Notes: generated by a model from the letters alone, not told the origin. A stretch of 64,000 nucleotides of DNA from an uncultured Candidatus Saccharibacteria bacterium (GCA_964504205.1 CAZDDE010000001.1:58473-122472), one strand, 5' to 3'. Positions 11,266 to 55,171 are shown, numbered from the stretch's first letter. Numbers and translations: made by a program.

Positions 11266-11802
11266 ATGATTCGCGATGAACTTGTAAAAATTCACGACTA
11301 CCTTAAATCAGAGTTTCTCAAAACGCGCGTCGGGCGCGCCTCCATCGATTTGGTTGAAGATATAAAAGTTGAAGTTTATGGCACAAAAATGCCGCTCAAC
11401 GAGCTCGCCACGCTTTCAGCGCCGGAGCCGCGGCTTGTTGTTGTGCAGCCATGGGATAAAAATATTTTAAAAAATATCGAAAAAGCTCTGCGGGAAAACT
11501 TAGCCGACTTCAACCCCATAATTGCTAGTGATTTAATACGCATTCCCTTCCCAGCCCCTAGCGCAGAGAGGAGAAAGGTGCTAGTAAAGGAAATTGGGAA
11601 GATTGCGGAAGAAGCAAGAATAAAAATTCGCCGCGCGCGGGAAGATGCTGTTTCCGCGATTGAAGCAGGGGAGCAGCGTGGTGAAATTTCCGAGGATGAA
11701 CTCCATCGCCAAAAAGATGCGGTGCAAAGGCAAGTTGATGAATTTAATCGTCTCGTGGAAGAAGAACGCAGAAAAAAGGAGGAAGAAATAATGAGTGTTT
11801 AA
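11266..11802 (+). CDS. frr: ribosome recycling factor
   Basis: 178 aa; RRF family (VYGTKMPLNELA..S.PE.R...V.PWD, coiled-coil C-terminus). Confidence 0.9.
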   Translation: MIRDELVKIHDYLKSEFLKTRVGRASIDLVEDIKVEVYGTKMPLNELATLSAPEPRLVVVQPWDKNILKNIEKALRENLADFNPIIASDLIRIPFPAPSAERRKVLVKEIGKIAEEARIKIRRAREDAVSAIEAGEQRGEISEDELHRQKDAVQRQVDEFNRLVEEERRKKEEEIMSV

Positions 11803-12881
11803 TGATTACCATTTTTTTACTTATCGCGATACTCGCGATTTTAATATTTGTTCACGAATTTGGCCATTTTATCATTGCGAAGCGCTCGGGAGCGCGCGTT
11901 GAAGAATTCGGTTTCGGATTTCCGCCGCGCGTTTTTGGCGTAAAAAAGGGAGAAACAGTTTACTCTCTCAACCTTTTGCCGATTGGTGGATTCGTGAAGA
12001 TTTTTGGCGAAGACGGCGACGAGCGAAAAGATAAACGCAGTTTTGGCTCAAAATCAATTGCAACGCGCGCTTTAATCATTGGCGCCGGAGTGATTATGAA
12101 TATGTTGCTTGCGGCAATCTTATTGTCATTTGGGCATATGATTGGGCTTCCGCAGGTTATCGACGGCGAAGGCGCTGGCGCCAATGTTAAAAATATCGCC
12201 ATTCGCGTTGCCGAAGTTGCTAAAAACTCACCAGCGGAATCTGCTGATATTAAAAATGGCGATGTAATTTATGCGATGGGTTTGGACCATCTTAGGGATG
12301 TTGCGGAGATTACGGAGATTCAGAATTTTACAAATGAACATCTTGGGGAAAAAATTAAAGTTGTTGTAAAGCGCGGCAATGCGGTTGTTACTAAAGAACT
12401 TGTTCCGAGGGTAGTTTATCCTGAAGGCGAAGGACCAATCGGCATTGCAATGGTGAAGACCGGCCAAATTTCTTATCCATTTTACATTGCGCCGTTTAAA
12501 GGCGTAGAAAGCACAGCTATTATTGCTTGGAATACCGTACAGGCATTCGTCAAAATTTTTGCGGATTTGTTTATGACCGGCAAACTTACGGAAGATCTCG
12601 CCGGACCAATCGGCATTGCGGTTATAACCGGCGAGGTTCAAAAAATGGGCTTCATCTTTCTTTTGCAGTTCGTTGCCTTAATGTCTATCAATTTAGCTAT
12701 AATCAATGTTTTGCCGATTCCAGCCCTTGATGGCGGGCGACTTTTATTCCTGGCTATTGAAAAAATTAAAGGATCACCAGTAAAGCAAAAATATGAAAAG
12801 ATGGCGCACACGATTGGTTTTGCAGTCTTAGTATTTTTGATGATCCTCGTAACTTTTCGGGATATAGGCAAGTTATTGTAG
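11802..12881 (+). CDS. rseP: RIP zinc metalloprotease RseP (site-2 protease)
   Basis: HEFGHF HExxH motif in TM1, a PDZ domain, and a C-terminal LDGG motif (PIPALDGGRLL). Confidence 0.88.
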   Translation: MITIFLLIAILAILIFVHEFGHFIIAKRSGARVEEFGFGFPPRVFGVKKGETVYSLNLLPIGGFVKIFGEDGDERKDKRSFGSKSIATRALIIGAGVIMNMLLAAILLSFGHMIGLPQVIDGEGAGANVKNIAIRVAEVAKNSPAESADIKNGDVIYAMGLDHLRDVAEITEIQNFTNEHLGEKIKVVVKRGNAVVTKELVPRVVYPEGEGPIGIAMVKTGQISYPFYIAPFKGVESTAIIAWNTVQAFVKIFADLFMTGKLTEDLAGPIGIAVITGEVQKMGFIFLLQFVALMSINLAIINVLPIPALDGGRLLFLAIEKIKGSPVKQKYEKMAHTIGFAVLVFLMILVTFRDIGKLL

Positions 12882-12941
12882 TCTTTAGTAAAGTTAGTAC
12901 TTACGCGTTTGCCGTATTTTATTCATAACTCCCCCTTGCCT

Positions 12942-13018
12942 CCCCCTCTTACCTTAAGAGGGGGAAACTCGGCACACGGCTTTGTGCTGCGCTCCCCTCT
13001 CTTAATGTAAGAGAGGGG
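12942..13018. repeat. pair of near-identical GC-rich palindromic hairpins (REP-like)
   Basis: CCCCCTCTTA-cct-TAAGAGGGGG (12942-12964) and CCCCTCTCTTA-atg-TAAGAGAGGGG (12994-13018), each a perfect 10-11-bp stem. No T-tract follows, so they are not classical terminators. Confidence 0.7.
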
Positions 13019-13075
13019 ACGGGGGTGAGTTATACAGTGCAAGCGCGTAAGTCCTAAAATTTAGGCATATCTAAA

Positions 13076-14066
13076 ATGGTTCAATAGAGCCAAAAATAGA
13101 AATCATCTACTAAAAAATGGTTCTACAAGGCCGTTTTTTAATATGTAACTACGTTTTCTAATCAATAGCTTTGCATCACCTCGTTCGGTGTTTTGAACTG
13201 TAATCCCATATGCGGTCGTTCCTCATTGTAGTATCGGAGATAATCCGGTATTTCTTTTTGCCACGATTTCAAACTCCTTGGGATACGGTTCAAACACTCG
13301 TCCTGTATGGTCCGATTGAACCTCTCAAGATGAGCGTTGTCGTTCGGTTTTCGGACTCGAGAATGGCGATGCGCGATCCCGTCAACCGCCACCATTTTCG
13401 TGAACCACTTCGAGAACTCCGGTCCGTGATCCGACTGCAGGGTCTTGACCAGAAATGGTAGTGACGCTGTCCGCACAAATTTCAGACTTCTATGGGTACT
13501 GATTCTCATTGCTGGCTCGGCCCTGGAACAAACATCCAGTATGGTATATACATACAATCTATTCTCATGCGGTCCATCGTGAATCGTGTCAATTTCCACT
13601 AATACGCCTGGTTTTTCAGCTAAAGGCCGTTCCGGATACTGATGCCACTTCTTCCAGCGGGAGTACCGGCTGCAGCCAAATCTCTTCAATACCCGCTTCA
13701 CCGAACTCAAGCTTGCCTGGTAGCCGTCATTCGTTAATCGATGGTGGAGAATCTCCGCGCACTGATGTCTTTCCGACCGGTATTCAAGAATCTTCCTTAC
13801 GATTTCTTGAGAAAGTTCCCGCGGATGATGATGGGGACGACAAGAGCGAGTGGGGATTACCAGTAAGTTAGAATTCCGCGCCTGTTCGACCCAGCGGACA
13901 ATGGAACTTTGATGGTATCCGGTGTGCCTGGAGACTCGTCTCGTGCTCCAGCCGTCACGAATTACCAACTGAGCGGCTTTCATCCGAAGCCGAGGAATAT
14001 ATTGATTTGTAGTGTATGGCATACCCATAGCTTAGAGCCATAGGTGATGCAAAGCTATTGAACCAT
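13076..14066 (-). mobile_element. IS481-family insertion sequence (single-ORF DDE transposase) with 24-bp terminal inverted repeats; the left repeat is interrupted
   Basis: Right inverted repeat GGTGATGCAAAGCTATTGAACCAT (14043-14066). Its reverse complement ATGGTTCAATAG|CTTTGCATCACC occurs on the left as 13076-13087 plus 13169-13180, split by about 75 bp followed by a repeated CAATAG. Confidence 0.7.
13162..14028 (-). CDS. IS481-family transposase (rve/DDE integrase core with N-terminal HTH)
   Basis: D (VEIDTIH), D (LQSDHGPEF), E (NDNAHLERFNRTIQDE), ERPHMGL motif; 288 aa single ORF. Confidence 0.88.
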   Translation of the reverse strand: MGMPYTTNQYIPRLRMKAAQLVIRDGWSTRRVSRHTGYHQSSIVRWVEQARNSNLLVIPTRSCRPHHHPRELSQEIVRKILEYRSERHQCAEILHHRLTNDGYQASLSSVKRVLKRFGCSRYSRWKKWHQYPERPLAEKPGVLVEIDTIHDGPHENRLYVYTILDVCSRAEPAMRISTHRSLKFVRTASLPFLVKTLQSDHGPEFSKWFTKMVAVDGIAHRHSRVRKPNDNAHLERFNRTIQDECLNRIPRSLKSWQKEIPDYLRYYNEERPHMGLQFKTPNEVMQSY

Positions 14067-14067
14067 A

Positions 14068-14889
14068 ACGAACTATTGACAAATATATTATTATATGCTA
14101 TAATGGGACTGTAAAATAAAGATACAAAAGTTCCTTGAAACAGAACAAGAGAAGAGAGACCCAACCCGAGGGCATCGGGATATAACCATAAGCAGGTTAA
14201 AGTATATGTTAAATAAGACGGTTGAGAAATCTCTTCTCTAGATGAAGTATCTAAGAAAAGATTTCCCAGCCGTTTTTCATTGCCCTTCCGAAGCTCCCGA
14301 GAGCGAAGGAGGGAGGAGAGAGTAATAAGATGGGTGGACACTAAACAACATATAATTGGTCTTAACCCACATCTTACAAAATTCATCCCGCACTTATTAT
14401 GAACAAGCTACGCTTAGAAACGCAGTCAGTTCATAATAAGTGCGGGACTCATCCTCCATCCTTGGCCCTCGAAGCTTTATGCGAAGTGGGCCTTCTCTCT
14501 AGATACGAGAGAAGATGTGAATTTAAGAGCTTGGGTAGTTCTTTCAAACGAAATAGTCATAGGTGGGGGACAAAGTGTCCTTGATGCAGAATTGAGGATA
14601 TCTCGTCCTTCACCTTCTCCGACTGCTCTGGATAAATTTCAAATCGTCCAGTGAAAGTGGAGGTCCCCTCAAGGTAAGGGAAAGGAGATAGACGTCGGCT
14701 TAGCCGACGTAATCCTCAGCATGGCATGGGTCTCGACCTGGCCATGTCTAAAGGGGCAGGATAACCTGCTCCGCGTGTCCTAACGAAAAGTTAGGGGAGC
14801 GCGTATTGCAAGATACGTAGCTCCCCGCTTCCACCGAATTTCTCACTTGCAAAAGTGGGAGATTCAGAGGAGGAGAGTTCTCTGAGAGA
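14068..14889. ncRNA. ORF-free, highly structured ~820-bp region; candidate large noncoding RNA of unknown class
   Basis: No ORF of 60 aa or more in any frame in an otherwise gene-dense genome. Many perfect or near-perfect local hairpins: 18-bp stem CCCGCACTTATTATGAAC/GTTCATAATAAGTGCGGG at 14383-14445; GCAGG-ataa-CCTGC; CGCG...CCTAAC-gaaaa-GTTAGG...CGCG (GNRA-like loop); GACGTCGGC-tta-GCCGACGT; CATGGC...GCCATG. Confidence 0.4.
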
Positions 14890-15147
14890 TTATCGATAGA
14901 TGTCTTTGCGATGGTCTATATCAAAAAAGACAGCGTGGTTTGTATCTTTGAAGTAAAAGAAAACCCGATATCGTCGGGTAATACGGAAAGAAAGCGCGTA
15001 ACCAAGACTTTGCACCTTCTTGATATGCAGACGGGAGTCTCGCCAGTTCAAAAAGAAGCGTTGTTGTTGTAGAGTGTAAATTTTCTGAATTTCTTTCGGG
15101 AGTTTGCGCGACGCTTTTTCAAAGTCGGCGGTCTTGATTATTTCCAT
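14890..15147 (-). CDS. type II toxin, RelE/ParE superfamily
   Basis: 85 aa; ...RITRRYRVFFYF.....AVFFDIDHRKDIY matches the RelE/ParE C-terminal beta-sheet and R/K catalytic pattern; overlaps the upstream antitoxin ORF by 10 nt. Confidence 0.7.
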   Translation of the reverse strand: MEIIKTADFEKASRKLPKEIQKIYTLQQQRFFLNWRDSRLHIKKVQSLGYALSFRITRRYRVFFYFKDTNHAVFFDIDHRKDIYR

Positions 15148-15353
15148 GAGAAAGGAGCAGGAGGATGCTTCCGTGTTGCGTTTTCATAGGAACGTTTGAG
15201 ACGAGTGGGATGGGCATAGTTTTTTAAACGATCCTGCGGGAGAAAAAGCATCATATCATTGCGAAGATAGCGCAATTCCTGCAGAATCGCTTGTAGTATC
15301 TCTGAATTTTCAGTAGTCTTTTTAGGAAAATTTGCTGTATTAGTTAAAGCCAT
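15138..15353 (-). CDS. putative antitoxin partner of the RelE/ParE-like toxin
   Basis: 71-aa ORF immediately upstream of the toxin with a 10-nt overlap; antitoxin-first gene order. Confidence 0.5.
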   Translation of the reverse strand: MALTNTANFPKKTTENSEILQAILQELRYLRNDMMLFLPQDRLKNYAHPTRLKRSYENATRKHPPAPFSWK

Positions 15354-15579
15354 ATACCTATTGTATCTTTCTAAATAAAAAAGTCAAATTTCTCCATCAA
15401 AGCGCGTCTTTCGGTAAACTCAAGATGCTTTTCGGTGGGGAAGTAAGCCCAAAATGATGAGGTTTTTCAAACAAATATTCCTCATGAGGCTGCCGAGTTA
15501 TGGGACATAAATCTCTCTTCTCACTCATCGCTTATGCGATGAGCTGTCCCGTGGCTCGCAGCCTCATGGTGAGTATTTA

Positions 15580-15615
15580 AAAATCCCCTGTCATCATATG
15601 ACAGGGGATTTTGCT
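15580..15615. terminator. bidirectional rho-independent terminator
   Basis: ATCCCCTGTCAT-cat-ATGACAGGGGAT perfect 12-bp stem flanked by an A-run on the 5' side and a T-run on the 3' side; 2 nt past the CDF transporter stop. Confidence 0.8.
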
Positions 15616-15616
15616 T

Positions 15617-16267
15617 TTAGACAGATTTTAATTCAGAGCGACTCTCGCGGATTGTCTTTGCCCCGAGGTACAAAGCGGCGAGGGCTATTGGGATAGCGGC
15701 GATACCATCGGCGCGATAAAATCCAGTCGTTAAAATAATCAAGCCGCCGATAAGCACGCCAATTGAGGAGAACATATCAATAAAATTATCGCGCAGGGCA
15801 ATTTTCATGAGAAACGTTTTGCGAGCTCGCGTACCTTTGTAAGTTACCGAGAGCATTAAAATTGCCTGGATGATTTCGCTTGTAAGCGCAATAGATGCAA
15901 CAACGATCATGTACGCGCTTAAAATTTCGCCAGGCGATATGATCCTGATGATCCCCGACGCGCCTATATATAGGGCAGTGCCGATGATGACCCATCCCAT
16001 ATACAATCCGGCGCGTGCCTGTTTGCGTCTGTGTCCGGCCGCATTGCCCCAAAGAGCTATTGAAAAAATGGCGGCATGAAAAAGACTATGCAAGGCATCG
16101 CCAAGCACGGCGGCGCTTCCTCCAGAAAGCCGCCAGAAAATAAGGCCAAGTATAAAAGTAGTTAGAGTAAAGGCGATTCCTAGCTTAAGCAGCCAAGGCG
16201 GCGCTTTAGCGTGCGAGTGACGGCCATGCATATGGTCGTTCTCGCCGTGCGATGCGTGACTATGCAT
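15617..16267 (-). CDS. cation diffusion facilitator (CDF) family transporter, transmembrane domain only
   Basis: His-rich N-terminus (HSHASHGENDHMHGRHSH), six transmembrane helices, a TM2 SAAVLGDALHSLFHA metal-site motif; 216 aa with no C-terminal cytoplasmic domain. Confidence 0.7.
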   Translation of the reverse strand: MHSHASHGENDHMHGRHSHAKAPPWLLKLGIAFTLTTFILGLIFWRLSGGSAAVLGDALHSLFHAAIFSIALWGNAAGHRRKQARAGLYMGWVIIGTALYIGASGIIRIISPGEILSAYMIVVASIALTSEIIQAILMLSVTYKGTRARKTFLMKIALRDNFIDMFSSIGVLIGGLIILTTGFYRADGIAAIPIALAALYLGAKTIRESRSELKSV

Positions 16268-16361: not shown

Positions 16362-17627
16362 ATGAAATTTACGGAATTATTTACTAAAACTTTGAAAGAA
16401 GCGCCGGCAGACGAACCGGCGAAAAATGCGCAGCTTTTAACGCGCGGAGGTTTTGTTTACAAAAATTCGGCGGGAGTTTACTCGTACTTGCCGCTCGGCT
16501 GGCTGGTTATAAACAAGATCAATAAAATTGTGCGCGAAGAGATGAATGCCATTGGCGGAGTAGAGATGTTCATGCCCGCGCTTGTGGATAGAAAGTATCT
16601 GGAGACAACGGATCGGTTTAAGCTGGATGTCGGATTTGATGCCCTCGGGAAAAAAGATAAAAAAGCGCCGTATGCCTTGGGTTGGACGCACGAAGAAGTG
16701 CTGACCGATATTGTTTCAAAGTATATTTATTCATACAAAGATTTGCCTATCGCTGTTTATCAGATTCAGACAAAGTTTCGCAACGAAGCGCGCGCGAAAA
16801 GCGGCCTTTTGCGCGGCCGCGAATTTCTCATGAAGGATCTCTATAGTTTTCATGCGGACGAAAAAGATCTTTTTGCATACTACGAAAAAGTAAAGCAGGC
16901 CTATTTTAATGTTGCGAGACGATGCGGCTTAAACACTTACTACACTGTTGCCGGCGGGGGAGATTTCACTATGTCCAACACTCACGAATTTCAGGTTTTA
17001 TCTGATGTTGGCGAAGATGAAATATATTATTGCAGTGATTGCGGTTACTCTGAAAATAAAGAGATATCAAAGTTAAAGCAAGGCGAAAAATGCCCTGCCC
17101 AAGAATGCGCCGGACTGATTAAGCACGACAACGCGATAGAAGTGGGCAATATTTTTCCGCTTGGAACTAAATATTCCCAAGCATTTAATCTCAAATATAG
17201 CGATGAGACTGGCAATAAAAAATTCGTAGTTATGGGTTCATACGGCATTGGCATCAGCCGATTGATAGGCACGGTCGTTGAAATTTCGAGCGACACAAAA
17301 GGGATAATTTGGCCAAAAGAAATCGCGCCATTTGACGCGCATCTTGTTTATCTTGCAACGAGCAACACACATGTGAAAGAAGAAGCAGATAAGATTTATG
17401 GTCTTTTACAGAAGGAGGGGATTGGAGTATTATACGATAATCGGGAAAACGCGACTGCCGGCGAAAAATTTACTGACGCCGATTTGCTGGGCATGCCTTG
17501 GCGCATCGTTATAAGCGATAAAACCTTAGCGCATAATTCCAGCGTGGAATTAAAGCGGCGCGATGAAAAAAATGCAGTACTATGCTCTCTAAACTCTTCG
17601 GTTATTTCTCAAAAGATATCGGCATAG
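16362..17627 (+). CDS. proS: prolyl-tRNA synthetase, short form without the editing insertion
   Basis: class II aaRS motifs, an anticodon-binding domain, and an inserted Cys-cluster zinc ribbon (CSDCGY...CPAQEC); 421 aa. Confidence 0.85.
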   Translation: MKFTELFTKTLKEAPADEPAKNAQLLTRGGFVYKNSAGVYSYLPLGWLVINKINKIVREEMNAIGGVEMFMPALVDRKYLETTDRFKLDVGFDALGKKDKKAPYALGWTHEEVLTDIVSKYIYSYKDLPIAVYQIQTKFRNEARAKSGLLRGREFLMKDLYSFHADEKDLFAYYEKVKQAYFNVARRCGLNTYYTVAGGGDFTMSNTHEFQVLSDVGEDEIYYCSDCGYSENKEISKLKQGEKCPAQECAGLIKHDNAIEVGNIFPLGTKYSQAFNLKYSDETGNKKFVVMGSYGIGISRLIGTVVEISSDTKGIIWPKEIAPFDAHLVYLATSNTHVKEEADKIYGLLQKEGIGVLYDNRENATAGEKFTDADLLGMPWRIVISDKTLAHNSSVELKRRDEKNAVLCSLNSSVISQKISA

Positions 17628-29840: not shown

Positions 29841-30473
29841 GTGGAAAGAATCTACGCATTCCTTCCGTCCGTTTTGGTCATGGCCTGTATCGCTGGTGTC
29901 ACGTTTCTCTACGTGAAGTGGGTCATCAAGCGGTTCGGCGACAACTTCAAGAGCGTCGAGTGGCATGAGAAGAATCAGCGGAAGGTCATCTGGGCCGTCG
30001 GCACGCCACTGGCCCATGTGTGGGCACCAGCAGTGGAGGAATTGATCTTCCGCGCTCCACTCATCATCGCGTTTGGTGCGATGTCTTCAGTCGCATGGTA
30101 CGGAGTTTTCGCGTCAAGCGGGCTCTTCGCGTTATCACACTGGTTCGGAAAGAAAATCTGGATGCCAGATATTCTTTCCGCGCGAGAGAATGGCAACCAC
30201 AAGACAGACGATGTGGTGGCAGAAGCGAATCGGCTCCACGCAGAGGAGGGGAAGATGATTATGGTGCGTAAGGTGCTCCATGTTGTCTTCACTCTACCCC
30301 TCGGCATCTTGGCTGGATACTACGGTATCAAGTATCAATCCATCTGGGTGGCCTTCGGGATTCACTCGGTGTGGAACCTCGTCATGCCGATCGTGGTTTC
30401 AATCCTCATGCTCTTGGGAGTGCTCACCCTCGTCGGCATCTCGTCTCTGTGGGACAGAGTAAGGTCGTGGTAA
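29841..30473 (+). CDS. CPBP-family (CAAX protease / Abi) intramembrane metalloprotease
   Basis: EELIFR (EExxxR motif 1), FALSHWF (FxxxH motif 2), HSVWN (HxxxN motif 3); GTG start with an AAGGAGG RBS. The gene uses mainly G/C-ending codons (GTC, ACG, TTC, GGC, AAG), whereas the flanking housekeeping genes use mainly A/T-ending codons (AAA, GAA, ATT). Confidence 0.75.
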   Translation: MERIYAFLPSVLVMACIAGVTFLYVKWVIKRFGDNFKSVEWHEKNQRKVIWAVGTPLAHVWAPAVEELIFRAPLIIAFGAMSSVAWYGVFASSGLFALSHWFGKKIWMPDILSARENGNHKTDDVVAEANRLHAEEGKMIMVRKVLHVVFTLPLGILAGYYGIKYQSIWVAFGIHSVWNLVMPIVVSILMLLGVLTLVGISSLWDRVRSW

Positions 30474-30488
30474 CTCAGCAAACAGTCA

Positions 30489-30545
30489 AGCGAGCACAAC
30501 TCGCTCCATATAGCTCCTCGCTCACGCGCGGAGCTATTTCTTTTT
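30489..30545 (+). terminator. rho-independent terminator downstream of the CPBP protease gene
   Basis: AGCTCC-tcgctcacgcgc-GGAGCT followed by ATTTCTTTTT. Confidence 0.6.
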
Positions 30546-30844
30546 AATAATTTGAAAGAACAAAGAATTTGCCGCCAAGACTGAAATTCGTTAGAATTTC
30601 AGTAATCCGAATGCCGCCAAAGAAAAACTTGAAATTGTCATTCGTGCGGCTCCGCCGCCTTTCCGGATTTTCGCGGGGGGACTTCCTCGCTCCGACGCAG
30701 GTCGGAGCGAAAGCGGTTCGGACTAATTCAAGTATCCTACATTTTAATCCGATATTATTAAGAAGGAGTACGCCGAGCCACTCGCTAAGAGGGTTTAAGC
30801 CCGAGCAGAACGCCACCTTAAACCTCTTCTGACCTGTCTTAAAT

Positions 30845-46616: not shown

Positions 46617-48290
<1,674 letters not shown>

Positions 48291-48294
48291 TACT

Positions 48295-48334
48295 AAAACA
48301 AATCATCGGGGTCAGCCCCGATGATTTGTTTTAG
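48295..48334 (+). terminator. rho-independent terminator after groEL
   Basis: AAACAAATCATCGGGG-tcag-CCCCGATGATTTGTTT perfect 16-bp stem followed by T-rich sequence. Confidence 0.85.
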
Positions 48335-48460
48335 TCTGTGGTTTTATTTTGGCGCATATTACCCTCTGTTTTTTCTTACCGAAGAGTGGTATGAAAAAGA
48401 TGGCTCATTAAAATTTTTATATTCTCCCCCGTAAGAATAGGGGAGTAGGAGGTGATCGTT

Positions 48461-53869: not shown

Positions 53870-55171
53870 CTAGCGGTGCCTTAGGCGGCCAGAGGGCCCG
53901 GATCGGCGCCTTGCTCCGAGATAAAACGCGCTCCTGCTGTGCGCGGAATCGTCTCGTTTGAACTGTCTTTCCGGCGGAAGCTCGGGGAGTCTGGAAATCG
54001 GAAGGCTTGCCTTGATCAAGCGCTCAATGCGCCCCACTTCGCCTCGCTGTTCCGGCATAACAAACGATATCGCGTGGCCCCCCGCGCCCGCGCGGGCAGT
54101 GCGGCCAATCCTATGGACATAGTCTTCGGGACCATTTGGCATATCATAGTTCATCACAAGGCCGATGTCGGCGACATCAATGCCGCGCGAGGCGATGTCT
54201 GTCGCTACAAGCACCAGGTACTTACCCGATCTGAACCCTTCAAGCGCCTCGCGCCGCTGGAAAACCGATCTATTGGAATGGATTTCGGCGGCACTATAGC
54301 CCATAGCGCGAACTTTTTGCGTAAGCCGCTTTGCGCCATGTTTTGTTCTCGCAAAAATAAGGGTGGTCCTTGAATATTGCTCAAGGAGCTTTTCCATAAG
54401 GCGATCCTTGTTGCCCCTTTCAATTATGAAGACTTCTTGCGTCACGCGCTCCACCGTGGTCCCCGAAGGGGCAACCTCCACGCGAATTGGCAATTTCATA
54501 TATCTTGTCGCGATTTTCATAATTCCCTGCGGCATTGTCGCGCAGAACAGCAATGTCTGTCGATCTTGAGGAACCGCGTCAAAGATTTTTTTTATTTGCG
54601 GCGCAAAGCCCATATCAAGCATGCGGTCCGCCTCATCCAAAACAACAATGCGCATGCCCTTGAGCGTAACATTTCTGTGCTCTAAGTGATCAATCAATCT
54701 GCCCGGTGTCGCGACGATGATATGAGGATCTTTCCTAAGCGCTCTTTCTTGTGCCCGTGAGTCAACACCGCCGATAAGAACCGCGACTCTAAGATTGATT
54801 GCATGGCCTACTTGTCGCAAAACCCCTTCTACTTGAGTGGCAAGTTCGCGCGTTGGCAGAACCACGAGGCCTTGGCCTTTAGTCTGGGCCAGCCTTTGAA
54901 TCATGGGGATTCCAAACGCAAATGTTTTGCCGGTTCCGGTTTGCGCTATGCCGACAATGTCGTTGCCCCCAAGCGCCACAGGAATGGCTTGCTGTTGAAT
55001 CGGAGTGGGGTTTACGCATTTCAACCTCGTCAACGCCTCAACAAGTGCCGGAGCAACGCCAAGAGCCGTAAAGCCAGGAGCTGCTTGTGCGGAAACGCTG
55101 TATTTTGTTTTGCTTGCTTGATTTTCCATTTTTCTATATTCTTTTATAGCATAGGCGAAAGTACTTGTCAA
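53870..55171 (-). CDS. DEAD-box ATP-dependent RNA helicase with an Arg/Gly-rich C-terminal tail
   Basis: Q-motif, AQTGTGKT (motif I), PTRELA, DEAD (VLDEADRMLDMGF), SAT and HRIGRTAR motifs. Confidence 0.9.
   Translation of the reverse strand: MTSTFAYAIKEYRKMENQASKTKYSVSAQAAPGFTALGVAPALVEALTRLKCVNPTPIQQQAIPVALGGNDIVGIAQTGTGKTFAFGIPMIQRLAQTKGQGLVVLPTRELATQVEGVLRQVGHAINLRVAVLIGGVDSRAQERALRKDPHIIVATPGRLIDHLEHRNVTLKGMRIVVLDEADRMLDMGFAPQIKKIFDAVPQDRQTLLFCATMPQGIMKIATRYMKLPIRVEVAPSGTTVERVTQEVFIIERGNKDRLMEKLLEQYSRTTLIFARTKHGAKRLTQKVRAMGYSAAEIHSNRSVFQRREALEGFRSGKYLVLVATDIASRGIDVADIGLVMNYDMPNGPEDYVHRIGRTARAGAGGHAISFVMPEQRGEVGRIERLIKASLPISRLPELPPERQFKRDDSAHSRSAFYLGARRRSGPSGRLRHR

What the first reader, a model, noticed from the sequence alone, without database searches (positions are those of the whole stretch)
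12882..15616. About 2.7-kb accessory insertion between rseP and a CDF transporter
Between two housekeeping genes lies a block with hallmarks of mobile DNA. It contains two REP-like palindromes, an IS481 element, an ORF-free structured region, and an antitoxin-toxin operon on the minus strand. It also carries a nested-palindrome element at 15487-15575: CATGAGGCTGC...GCAGCCTCATG enclosing TCATCGC-ttat-GCGATGA, a plausible autoregulatory operator upstream of the antitoxin gene. The CDF transporter that abuts the block is a transmembrane-domain-only form ending right at the junction, though a clean terminator follows its stop.
Basis: partly seen in the sequence, partly recalled or inferred. Interest (0 to 1): 0.55.

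Follow-up and report, generated by a model that had tools for sequence, protein, structure and literature searches.

The report
Mosaic islet with unclassified structured RNA
The 2.7-kb block is accessory DNA built up stepwise in a normally tiny gap between two genes of a Patescibacteria genome; most of it is ordinary (an insertion sequence and a RelE-type toxin-antitoxin pair), but its gene-free part is a strongly promoted, highly folded RNA that matches no known RNA family.

Summary
The window comes from a Patescibacteria (Parcubacteria) genome. In five related lineages (rseP 65-75% identical) rseP and the CDF gene are only 14-64 bp apart, separated by one terminator hairpin. The block is therefore accessory. 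It is not one insertion but a mosaic:
- a lineage-specific palindromic element;
- a 900-bp IS481-family IS with perfect 20-bp inverted repeats, absent from the sister lineage;
- a RelE/YoeB-fold toxin with a small helical antitoxin, a cassette found elsewhere between unrelated genes;
- a nested palindrome too far from the TA promoter to be a likely operator.

The TMD-only CDF is native to the clade, not truncated by the block.

The 'ORF-free structured region' is the notable part. A perfect TTGACA-17-TGnTATAAT promoter drives a + strand RNA. Its first ~170 nt end in a 27-bp hairpin plus U-tract. The first ~360 nt are 85-100% conserved in a sister lineage whose neutral sites are near saturation. 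A distant Kaiserbacteria locus has the same promoter and hairpin, with compensatory changes. In both relatives this RNA is a ~500-nt leader of unrelated accessory genes; here it is followed by 420 nt of orphan structured RNA. Rfam has no match. Function is unproven.

The parts
11802..12881 (+). rseP-like site-2 protease (left flank; not part of the islet)
   Evidence: Pfam Peptidase_M50 E=3e-55 plus PDZ. frr-rseP-proS-mreB-pbp2 synteny is seen in 80 Patescibacteria loci.
12894..13057 (.). Lineage-specific nested palindromic element: outer arms 12894-12925 and 13026-13057; inner hairpins 12941-12965 and 12993-13019
   Evidence: the repeat finder I1, I3, I17, I24. Single copy in the window. L086 carries an unrelated 66-nt palindrome at the same place.
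13061..13145 (+). Two tandem terminator-like hairpins after rseP; the second is followed by T6. Shared with the sister lineage.
   Evidence: 80% identical to L086 2328-2406, L088 and L101. In L086 both are perfect TGGCTCTAYAGAGCCA palindromes flanked by A and T runs.
13162..14061 (-). IS481-family insertion sequence, 900 bp. Terminal inverted repeats 13162-13181 and 14042-14061. Transposase 13162-14028, 288 aa, candidate DDE residues D147/D200/E235.
   Evidence: Perfect 20-nt inverted repeats. Pfam rve_3 and rve; NCBIfam IS481 E=1.3e-49. Motifs EIDTIH, SDHGPEF and HLERFNRT. Absent from the homologous position in L086/L101. No target-site duplication is visible.
14076..14104 (+). Sigma-70 consensus promoter TTGACA-17-TATAAT with extended -10 TG
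   Evidence: 12 of 12 match. Hexamers and TGC are conserved in L086/L101 and L048 while the spacer diverges.
14111..14281 (+). RNA unit A: purine tract 14147-14159, small hairpin 14165-14179, window-specific hairpin 14183-14199, 27-bp hairpin 14215-14276, then U5 at 14277-14281 (looks like an intrinsic terminator or attenuator)
   Evidence: 85-100% identical to L086/L101. CM R1 finds L048 3762-3871 at 29.7 bits. The hairpin is 95.3% paired over 4 sequences, with 4 pairs changed on both sides; slid controls give 45-56%. The start coordinate is inferred from the promoter.
14282..14465 (+). RNA unit B: GGAGG-rich tract 14302-14322, conserved hairpin 14326-14376 with a large invariant loop, window-specific 62-nt hairpin 14386-14447, CCUCC-rich tract 14448-14463 that pairs with the GGAGG tract
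   Evidence: Long 100%-identical blocks in L086/L101, with hairpin-sized indels. MFE structures agree in both lineages. L101 lacks the 33 nt just after the U-tract.
14466..14889 (+). RNA unit C: orphan structured segment (about 10 hairpins, two with GCAA tetraloops). No ORF. No homolog found outside this organism.
   Evidence: MFE -179.8 kcal/mol (18 G-U pairs) on + against -147.2 on -. Strand asymmetry residual z = -3.1 after composition correction. GC-corrected folding z = -5.1, the strongest in the window. nhmmer hits only same-organism contigs.
14890..15147 (-). RelE/YoeB-fold toxin, 85 aa
   Evidence: PHROG RelE-like 1.8e-6. Pfam ParE_toxin E=0.006, below cutoff. More than 200 homologs, some named RelE by JGI. 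Profile against PDB hits RelE3 3bpq, E=0.002. AF2 pLDDT 90; Foldseek TM 0.74-0.76 to RelE and YoeB. Invariant R55, R58, R61, H79, Y84.
15138..15353 (-). Cognate antitoxin, 71 aa; overlaps the toxin gene by 10 nt
   Evidence: Homologous 66-79-aa ORFs precede the toxin homologs in L109-L115. 75 representative clusters and no Pfam family. AF2 model has two helices, pTM 0.38.
15358..15453 (-). TA promoter (TTGACT-16/17-TACAAT, 15387-15360; the ATG lies 6 nt after the -10, so the mRNA is probably leaderless) inside a block shared with the sister lineage
   Evidence: Promoter scan. 83.5% identical to L086 4748-4844, where the block precedes an unrelated antitoxin. Start context.
15473..15578 (.). 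Nested palindrome: outer arms 15473-15493 and 15558-15578; inner 15524-15543
   Evidence: the repeat finder I6. Arms unique in the window. Not shared with the last 33 nt of L086.
15580..15612 (-). Native bidirectional terminator hairpin of the CDF gene (right boundary of the islet)
   Evidence: 15-bp perfect stem (I12). The empty sites in L085, L107, L108 and L116 each hold a single comparable hairpin between rseP and CDF.
15617..16267 (-). CDF transporter, transmembrane domain only, 216 aa (right flank; native)
   Evidence: Pfam Cation_efflux 4.7e-16. Orthologs of 211-229 aa lacking the C-terminal domain occur in L085, L107 and L108; L117 has a 298-aa form with ZT_dimer.

Best explanation
Window 12882-15579 is a lineage-specific accessory islet. 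It accreted stepwise in the ancestrally 14-64-bp rseP|CDF spacer of a Spechtbacteria-like Parcubacteria genome. The spacer behaves as a recombination and insertion hot spot, and related lineages hold nothing, a PIN toxin, or a different cargo set there.

Shown: the islet's parts have separate histories.
1. An IS481-family IS with an intact DDE transposase landed 14 bp upstream of the RNA promoter, only in this lineage.
2. A RelE/YoeB-type toxin and its small helical antitoxin form a portable two-gene cassette. By analogy with RelBE/YefM-YoeB, the toxin is presumed to cleave ribosome-bound mRNA and the antitoxin to neutralise it, which would stabilise the islet (inferred).
3. Palindromic elements sit at both edges.

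Partly shown: the gene-free 14076-14889 stretch is a transcription unit on the + strand. A consensus extended -10 promoter starts an RNA whose first ~170 nt (unit A) end in a conserved 27-bp hairpin plus U-tract. Units A and B (~360 nt) are conserved in the sister lineage. Unit A and the promoter recur in a Kaiserbacteria genome. In both relatives the RNA is a ~480-530-nt highly folded leader in front of unrelated accessory ORFs.

Inferred mechanism: a portable promoter-plus-leader cassette gates expression of downstream cargo. Gating could work by terminator/antiterminator choice, with the purine tract 14148-14157 competing for the terminator's 5' arm 14230-14239. It could also work by sequestering the Shine-Dalgarno sequence with a CCUCC segment. 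In this window the cargo ORFs are absent. The leader instead runs into 420 nt of orphan structured RNA that abuts the convergent toxin gene. That RNA may act as a stable non-coding product or as a buffer against convergent transcription.
For: Accessory status:
- Empty sites in L085, L116, L107, L117 and L108.
- Alternative contents in L086/L101 and L106.
- None of the 80 more distant loci carries CDF, TA, transposase or the RNA next to rseP.
- The block is a tetranucleotide outlier, 0 of 112 background segments as extreme.

IS: perfect inverted repeats, DDE motifs, best family match IS481, and absence in L086.

TA: fold, profile and conserved gene pairing in unrelated contexts.

RNA:
- 12/12 promoter, conserved at the hexamers but not in the spacer.
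- Folding z-scores of -12.7, and -9.2 and -8.8 for the relatives' leaders.
- Core identity of 85-100%, against 47-55% at fourfold-degenerate sites of the neighbouring rseP and frr.
- All four large indels are self-contained hairpins.
- The CM hit in L048 lies 115 nt downstream of the only other exact copy of the 17-base promoter pattern in 178 loci.
- The hairpin covaries.
- The antiterminator register is 97.5% paired in 4 sequences (slide +1).
- The L048 MFE structure pairs CCUCC with the ORF's GGAGG Shine-Dalgarno sequence.
- No Rfam match.
Against: - There are only three independent RNA lineages, so covariation outside the long hairpin cannot be tested.
- A conserved hairpin plus U-tract could simply be a terminator.
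- L101 lacks 33 nt of a block that is 100% conserved between the window and L086.
- Unit C has no homolog anywhere searched.
- The 5' half folds equally well on both strands, as stacked DNA palindromes would.
- The purine and pyrimidine tracts are low-complexity, so the alternative pairings are not specific: slid registers reach 70-78% paired.
- The extended -10 promoter type also drives an ordinary helicase gene in this window.
- No transcription data exist.
- The IS shows no target-site duplication, and its NCBIfam score (169) is below the family cutoff (224).
Confidence: 0.7

Rival explanations
1. The ORF-free region is non-functional debris: stacked MITE-like palindromic insertions and decayed genes. 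It folds well only because it consists of palindromes.
For: - The indels between lineages are hairpin-sized; one is flanked by an 11-nt direct repeat, GCGAAGGAGGG, in L086.
- The 5' half folds equally well on both strands.
- Unit C is an orphan.
- L101 tolerates a 33-nt deletion.
- The region has a very narrow distribution.
Against: - The consensus promoter is conserved at its hexamers while its spacer drifts.
- The core is 85-100% identical while neutral sites are 47-55% identical.
- A collinear homolog with compensatory changes exists in a different candidate phylum-level group of Parcubacteria.
- The strand asymmetry of unit C exceeds what composition predicts.
- None of the hairpins is repeated elsewhere in the window.
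Confidence: 0.17
2. Unit A is a free-standing trans-acting small RNA of about 170 nt that ends at the hairpin plus U-tract. Units B and C, and the ORFs in relatives, are unrelated downstream sequence.
For: - Unit A has the classic small-RNA layout: a strong promoter, ~100 nt of body, and a long GC-containing stem plus U5-7.
- L101's deletion begins exactly after the U-tract.
- Only unit A is detectably shared with L048.
Against: - Unit B is as strongly conserved as unit A between the window and L086.
- In L086 and L048 no other promoter was seen for the downstream ORFs, which lie on the same strand at +480 to +530.
- An antiterminator-like pairing is available in all four sequences.
Confidence: 0.25
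3. The whole 2.7-kb block is a single mobile element that inserted in one event.
For: - Palindromic elements lie at both edges.
- The block has deviant tetranucleotide composition.
- The block contains an IS and a TA pair.
Against: - There is no integrase or recombinase other than the internal IS.
- There are no direct repeats at the edges, and the edge palindromes are not significantly related.
- The sister lineage shares only some modules and lacks the IS.
- The TA cassette occurs alone elsewhere.
Confidence: 0.07
4. The nested palindrome 15473-15578 is the autoregulatory operator of the TA operon.
For: It lies upstream of the antitoxin gene and is dyad-symmetric.
Against: - Its nearest edge is 86 nt upstream of the -35 hexamer.
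- Homology with L086 stops at 15453, before the palindrome.
- Homologous TA cassettes in L110 and L112 have ~50-nt promoter regions without such an element.
- The antitoxin model is two helices with no RHH, HTH or AbrB fold.
Confidence: 0.08

Closest known systems
IS481 family insertion sequences
   Same: - A single DDE (rve) transposase with an N-terminal HTH.
- Terminal inverted repeats.
- IS481 is the best family-level match: NCBIfam E=1.3e-49, and about 28% identity to annotated IS481 transposases.
   Different: - It is small (900 bp).
- Its score is below NCBIfam's cutoff.
- No target-site duplication is visible.
- The transposase stop codon is the last three bases of the element.
RelBE / YefM-YoeB type II toxin-antitoxin systems
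   Same: - The antitoxin gene comes first and overlaps the toxin gene.
- The 85-aa toxin has the RelE/YoeB fold, TM 0.74-0.76.
- The toxin has conserved basic residues and C-terminal His/Tyr residues.
   Different: - The antitoxin belongs to no Pfam family and shows no recognisable DNA-binding domain.
- The antitoxin mRNA is probably leaderless.
- Activity is untested.
Transcription-attenuation leaders and riboswitch expression platforms
   Same: - A promoter-proximal structured RNA with a terminator hairpin plus U-tract.
- An upstream segment that can pair with the terminator's 5' arm.
- A CCUCC segment able to mask a Shine-Dalgarno sequence.
   Different: - No known aptamer or Rfam family matches.
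- The leader is unusually long (480-780 nt).
- The downstream genes are unrelated accessory cargo.
- In this window there is no downstream ORF at all.
Large ornate bacterial non-coding RNAs (GOLLD, ROOL, OLE, HEARO)
   Same: - It is several hundred nucleotides long.
- It has an extreme predicted structure.
- It is located in mobile or accessory DNA.
   Different: - It does not match their covariance models.
- Its distribution is very narrow so far.
- No covariation support exists beyond one helix.
Genomic islets at intergenic hot spots / TA-stabilised variable regions
   Same: - It is present or absent among close relatives.
- It has alternative cargo at one site.
- It contains an IS and a TA pair.
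- Its oligonucleotide composition is deviant.
   Different: - It has no tRNA target, no integrase and no flanking direct repeats.

Membership tests
IS481 family IS | DDE transposase with an rve integrase-core domain | tested here: met
   Pfam rve_3 7.5e-19 and rve 6e-11. D147/D200/E235 motifs.
IS481 family IS | Transposase scores above the curated IS481 model cutoff | tested here: not met
   NCBIfam NF033577 scores 169.2 bits against a cutoff of 224. It is still the best family, ahead of IS3 at 116.5.
IS481 family IS | Terminal inverted repeats bounding the element | tested here: met
   20-nt perfect inverted repeats at 13162-13181 and 14042-14061.
IS481 family IS | Short target-site duplication flanking the element | tested here: not met
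   The flanks ...TTTTCTAA | ACCATAAC... share no direct repeat.
Type II TA, RelE/ParE superfamily | Toxin with the RelE/ParE-superfamily fold | tested here: met
   AF2 pLDDT 90. Foldseek to 3bpq, 2a6r, 1wmi and 9g12 at TM 0.72-0.76. Profile against RelE3, E=0.002.
Type II TA, RelE/ParE superfamily | Adjacent small antitoxin gene, co-oriented and co-inherited | tested here: met
   10-nt overlap. Homologous antitoxin-toxin pairs occur in L109-L115.
Type II TA, RelE/ParE superfamily | Antitoxin with a DNA-binding domain and an operator at the promoter | tested here: inconclusive
   The model has two helices with pTM 0.38. There is no Pfam match, and no dyad was found over the -35/-10 region.
Type II TA, RelE/ParE superfamily | Toxicity that the antitoxin neutralises | not testable with these tools
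   Needs expression experiments.
REP (repetitive extragenic palindrome) elements | Many dispersed copies of the same palindrome in the genome | tested here: not met
   The motif occurs only at 12941-13019 in the 64-kb window. The rest of the genome was not available.
Any Rfam 15 RNA family | Covariance-model score at or near the gathering threshold | tested here: not met
   Only miRNA-like hairpin noise, far below threshold, appears for the window and for L086.
Intrinsic terminator / attenuator | Stable stem immediately followed by a U-tract, conserved as structure | tested here: met
   14215-14276 plus U5. 95.3% of cells paired, with 4 pairs changed on both sides.
Intrinsic terminator / attenuator | Mutually exclusive antiterminator pairing | tested here: inconclusive
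   10 bp are possible in all 4 sequences (97.5% paired, slide +1). The tracts are low-complexity, so specificity is weak.
Genomic island | Absent from the same site in close relatives | tested here: met
   Five empty sites.
Genomic island | Integrase, tRNA target and flanking direct repeats | tested here: not met
   No tRNA lies nearby, no integrase ORF is present, and there are no edge repeats.
Cation diffusion facilitator | Six-TM Cation_efflux domain plus cytoplasmic ZT_dimer domain | tested here: not met
   Only the TMD is present. The same holds in relatives without the islet; L117 retains ZT_dimer.

The most novel reading that the evidence does not exclude
Units A and B (and perhaps C) represent a previously undescribed family of long, highly structured Parcubacteria RNAs. 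The family would be a portable 'promoter + leader' cassette that travels with accessory or conflict-system cargo (ORF196; ORF159 with MoxR-vWA; TA-flanked islets) and gates its expression through a terminator/antiterminator and anti-Shine-Dalgarno switch that responds to an unknown signal. In this genome it would persist as a stand-alone ~780-nt non-coding RNA.
Probability: 0.3. Interest if true: 0.65.

Novelty: new member of a known kind. Interest (0 to 1): 0.42.

Why it matters
As an islet the block is routine. It does show that even ~1-Mb Patescibacteria genomes keep intergenic hot spots where IS elements and toxin-antitoxin cassettes turn over between lineages that are 75% identical.

The RNA is the part worth following. 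Regulatory RNAs are almost uncharted in the Candidate Phyla Radiation. Here a consensus promoter drives a 0.5-0.8-kb RNA that folds far better than anything else in the window, is conserved well above the neutral rate, recurs with compensatory changes in a Kaiserbacteria genome, and matches no Rfam family. If it is a regulated leader for mobile cargo, it would be a new RNA class and a handle on how these reduced genomes control accessory genes.

Tried and rejected
- Rfam at gathering and permissive thresholds on the window and on L086: only hairpin noise.
- tRNA/tmRNA scan: nothing near the block.
- Search for spurious ORFs that overlap RNA homologs in the 5.8-billion-protein set: only the self hit.
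- Exact-pattern scans for RNA blocks. Five viral-contig scans gave chance hits only. The single metagenome scan found just L101, a variant of L086.
- blastn against phages and plasmids: no match.
- Unit C as a decayed copy of L086's ORF196 or as a duplicate of units A and B: no similarity.
- Unit C as part of the TA cassette: homologous cassettes lack it.
- The edge palindromes as related terminal repeats of one element: not significant.
- RNAalifold on three sequences: too little variation, and MAFFT misaligned the 3' end.
- PADLOC on the cargo and TA proteins: no hits.
- ORF159 (L048) against ORF196 (L086): unrelated.
- Exact look-up of the 288-aa transposase: not on record, because gene callers chose other start codons.
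- The first sliding-window fold script timed out.


Full report
**1. What is in the sequence**

The window belongs to a Patescibacteria (Parcubacteria) genome. Its rseP is 100% identical to a protein seen only in MAG and metagenome contigs. The nearest named relatives are Candidatus Spechtbacteria and Portnoybacteria.

Between rseP (11802-12881, +) and a Cation_efflux gene (15617-16267, -) lie the following features:
- a nested palindromic element at 12894-13057;
- two terminator-like hairpins at 13061-13145;
- a 900-bp element at 13162-14061 with perfect 20-nt terminal inverted repeats and a 288-aa rve-domain transposase;
- an 828-nt stretch without credible ORFs at 14062-14889;
- two overlapping small genes on the - strand, at 15138-15353 and 14890-15147;
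- a promoter block at 15358-15453;
- a nested palindrome at 15473-15578;
- a perfect 15-bp hairpin at 15580-15612 directly after the CDF stop codon.

The nested-palindrome coordinates are a few bases off. The 'REP-like' palindromes are single-copy in the window.

**2. Is it an insertion?**

Across 80 Patescibacteria species representatives (rseP at most 54% identical) the conserved order is frr-rseP-proS-mreB-pbp2. None of them has a CDF gene, a TA pair, a transposase or the non-coding region next to rseP.

Closer relatives were recovered through the protein index, and they are decisive.
- Empty sites: L085 (rseP 74% identical), L116 (75%), L107 (67%), L117 (68%) and L108 (65%). In each, rseP is followed after 14-64 bp by the convergent CDF gene, with a single hairpin between them.
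- Occupied sites differ from the window. L106 (76%) has a PIN-domain toxin 57 bp after rseP.
- L086/L101 (76%) have a different palindrome, the same terminator module, no IS, a homolog of the first ~360 nt of the non-coding region, then two unrelated ORFs. These are followed by a PIN/AbrB-like TA and the same TA-promoter block.

The block is also the most deviant 2.7-kb segment of the window in tetranucleotide usage: L1 distance 0.333 against 0.192 +/- 0.026, with 0 of 112 background segments as extreme. Its GC content is ordinary, 0.448 against 0.455.

The accessory nature is therefore established, but the block is a mosaic assembled in several events at a hot spot, not one insertion. No integrase, tRNA target or flanking direct repeat is present, and the edge palindromes are not significantly related.

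The transmembrane-only CDF (216 aa) is not an artefact of the junction. Orthologs of 211-229 aa without a cytoplasmic domain occur at empty sites. A more distant relative, L117, keeps a 298-aa form with ZT_dimer.

**3. The ordinary parts**

IS element.
- The transposase's best family match is IS481: NCBIfam E=1.3e-49, although its 169 bits are below the 224-bit cutoff. tblastn gives about 28% identity to annotated IS481 transposases.
- It carries D147/D200/E235 motifs with DD(35)E spacing.
- It sits 14 bp upstream of the -35 of the RNA promoter and is absent from L086/L101, so it is a recent arrival.
- No target duplication is visible.

Toxin-antitoxin pair.
- The 85-aa protein belongs to a family with more than 200 members, mostly from Patescibacteria. 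JGI names several of them RelE.
- A family profile hits archaeal RelE3, E=0.002.
- An AlphaFold model (pLDDT 90) superposes on RelE and YoeB structures at TM 0.74-0.76.
- R55, R58, R61, H79 and Y84 are invariant.
- The upstream 71-aa ORF has homologs in front of toxin homologs at unrelated genomic sites, so the pair is a portable cassette.
- The antitoxin has 75 representative clusters, no Pfam family, and a two-helix model without a recognisable DNA-binding fold.

Promoter and nested palindrome.
- The TA promoter (TTGACT...TACAAT) ends 6 nt before the ATG, which suggests a leaderless mRNA.
- The nested palindrome begins 86 nt upstream of the -35 and lies beyond the end of homology with L086. 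It is missing from homologous cassettes. An operator role is therefore unlikely.

**4. The gene-free region is a transcription unit**

Promoter.
- At 14076-14104 there is a 12/12 match to TTGACA-17-TATAAT with an extended -10 TG.
- In L086/L101 and in L048 the hexamers and the TGC are kept while the spacer diverges.
- The 17-base pattern TTGACAA-N12-ATGCTATAMT occurs in only four of 178 fetched loci: the window's own copy, L086, L101 and L048.
- One near-match in the window drives a DEAD-box helicase gene. The motif is therefore this group's strong-promoter consensus and not something specific to the RNA.

Folding.
- The region's z-score is -12.7 on the + strand.
- Its two halves are the top GC-corrected folding outliers among all 400-nt windows.
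- For the 3' half, the + strand is favoured by 33 kcal/mol and has more G-U pairs. This exceeds what base skews predict (residual z = -3.1).
- The 5' half folds equally well on both strands.

Conservation.
- Fourfold-degenerate sites of rseP and frr are 47-55% identical between the window and L086. The RNA core at 14134-14349 is 85-100% identical, while the promoter spacer and the first 30 nt are 60-70% identical.
- The four large indels between the lineages are each self-contained hairpins.

**5. Anatomy of the RNA**

Unit A (about 14111-14281) contains, in order:
- a purine tract;
- a 5-bp hairpin;
- a window-specific hairpin;
- a 27-bp hairpin at 14215-14276 followed by U5, which looks like an intrinsic terminator.

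A covariance model of unit A was searched over 1.42 Mb of Patescibacteria loci. Apart from the training sequences, its best hit was L048 3762-3871 (Candidatus Kaiserbacteria, 29.7 bits, E about 1e-4). That hit lies 115 nt downstream of the promoter pattern just described.

A four-sequence alignment is collinear through the promoter, AAAGTTC-TTG, AGAGRAGAGAG, AAGTA, the hairpin arms and the U-tract. On it the long hairpin is 95.3% paired and has four pairs changed on both sides. Slid controls give 45-56% paired, and at most 4 of 500 shuffles reach the observed values.

The purine tract can pair with the hairpin's 5' arm in all four sequences (97.5% paired in the +1 register). The tracts are low-complexity, so this is only suggestive.

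Unit B (14282-14465) holds a GGAGG-rich tract that pairs with a CCUCC-rich tract around a conserved hairpin with a large invariant loop. It is conserved in L086/L101. L101, however, lacks the 33 nt right after the U-tract.

Unit C (14466-14889) is about ten further hairpins, two of them with GCAA loops. It has no homolog in anything searched.

**6. What the relatives say about function**

In L086 the RNA is a ~530-nt leader (z = -9.2) ahead of a 196-aa ORF with a ribosome-binding site and a probable 65-aa membrane protein.

In L048 it is a ~480-nt leader (z = -8.8) ahead of a 159-aa ORF. That ORF is followed by a MoxR-type AAA+ ATPase (PF20030) and a vWA protein. The minimum-energy fold pairs a CCUCC segment with the ORF's GGAGG Shine-Dalgarno sequence. 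The two cargo sets are unrelated.

The most economical reading is a portable promoter-plus-leader cassette that gates accessory cargo by termination and/or Shine-Dalgarno masking. In the window the cargo is missing. The transcript either stops at 14281 or continues through units B and C up to the convergent toxin gene, where no + strand terminator is seen.

Steps shown: the promoter, the conservation, the hairpin covariation and the leader position in the relatives. Steps inferred: transcription itself, the switch, and any role for unit C.

**7. Comparison with known systems**

The IS and the TA pair are new members of known kinds; the membership table gives the features met and not met.

The RNA matches no Rfam family, including GOLLD, ROOL, OLE, HEARO, riboswitches and T-boxes. 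It has no relative in phage or plasmid collections, IMG/VR, or (for one 18-mer) JGI metagenomes. Literature searches for structured RNAs of Patescibacteria found nothing relevant.

The RNA works most like a transcription-attenuation leader. Membership in any defined class cannot be claimed.

**8. Verdict**

Its under-appreciated component is a strongly promoted, conserved, structured RNA of unknown function. I give about 0.3 probability that this RNA is the first glimpse of a new leader or non-coding RNA family in Parcubacteria.

Overall interest is moderate (0.42).

Noticed in passing
L048:3663-7753: A Candidatus Kaiserbacteria contig carries the same extended promoter and a unit-A-like RNA, then a ~480-nt structured leader. 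Downstream are two unknown ORFs (159 and 119 aa), a MoxR-type AAA+ ATPase (PF20030, the MoxR-vWA-beta-propeller conflict-system domain) and a vWA protein, all inserted after an mreB-like gene.
   Followed up: partly
window 55143-55171 (-): A second near-consensus extended -10 promoter (TTGACAA-N12-ATGCTATAAA) drives a DEAD-box helicase gene through a ~20-nt leader. This promoter type is therefore the general strong-promoter consensus of this organism.
   Followed up: yes
window 12924-12974 and 15491-15502; also 12941-13019 vs 15580-15612: CATAACTC...AACTCGGCA in the left palindromic element reads like CATAACTCGGCA interrupted by a hairpin flanked by AACTC. Its reverse complement, TGCCGAGTTATG, lies in the right nested palindrome. 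The left hairpins (TCCCC...GGGGA) also resemble the native CDF terminator and the terminators at empty sites. Overall the similarity is not statistically significant, but it hints that the terminator hairpin was duplicated when the islet formed.
   Followed up: partly
L086:4046-4475 (-): The PIN toxin of the sister lineage is split into two overlapping frames: a 72-aa N-terminal PIN_3 part and a 116-aa C-terminal part. This is either a frameshifted pseudogene or an assembly error. L106 has an intact-looking C-terminus.
   Followed up: no
L117:2577-3473 vs window 15617-16267: The CDF next to rseP has a cytoplasmic ZT_dimer domain in the 68%-identical relative. The domain is missing (211-229 aa) in all closer relatives, so it was lost in the clade before the islet arose.
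   Followed up: yes
window 15353-15365 (-): The antitoxin ATG lies 6 nt downstream of the TACAAT -10 hexamer and has no Shine-Dalgarno sequence. This implies a leaderless mRNA. In L086 the same promoter sits 9 nt before an unrelated antitoxin.
   Followed up: no
L083 end (window 14038-14067), L081 start (window 14139), L084 end (window 13050): Independent assemblies of the same organism break at the IS end (with a 30-nt fold-back), just inside the RNA, and inside the left palindrome. This fits repeat-induced or hairpin-induced assembly breaks, and possibly more IS copies in the genome.
   Followed up: no
L101:409-420 vs L086:2624-2660: A strain-level variant (97.8% identical) of the sister lineage lacks exactly the 33 nt that follow the unit-A U-tract. 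L086 has an 11-nt direct repeat (GCGAAGGAGGG) around a ~97-nt structured insertion there.
   Followed up: partly
window 17582-17627: The annotated-length mreB ORF overlaps the end of proS by 46 nt. The same overlap is called in L085. The cause may be a conserved overlap or an upstream alternative start codon.
   Followed up: no
window 48001-48400 (+) and 30401-30800 (-): These are the next-strongest GC-corrected folding outliers (z about -3.6 and -3.2). At least the first lies inside a 548-aa ORF.
   Followed up: no
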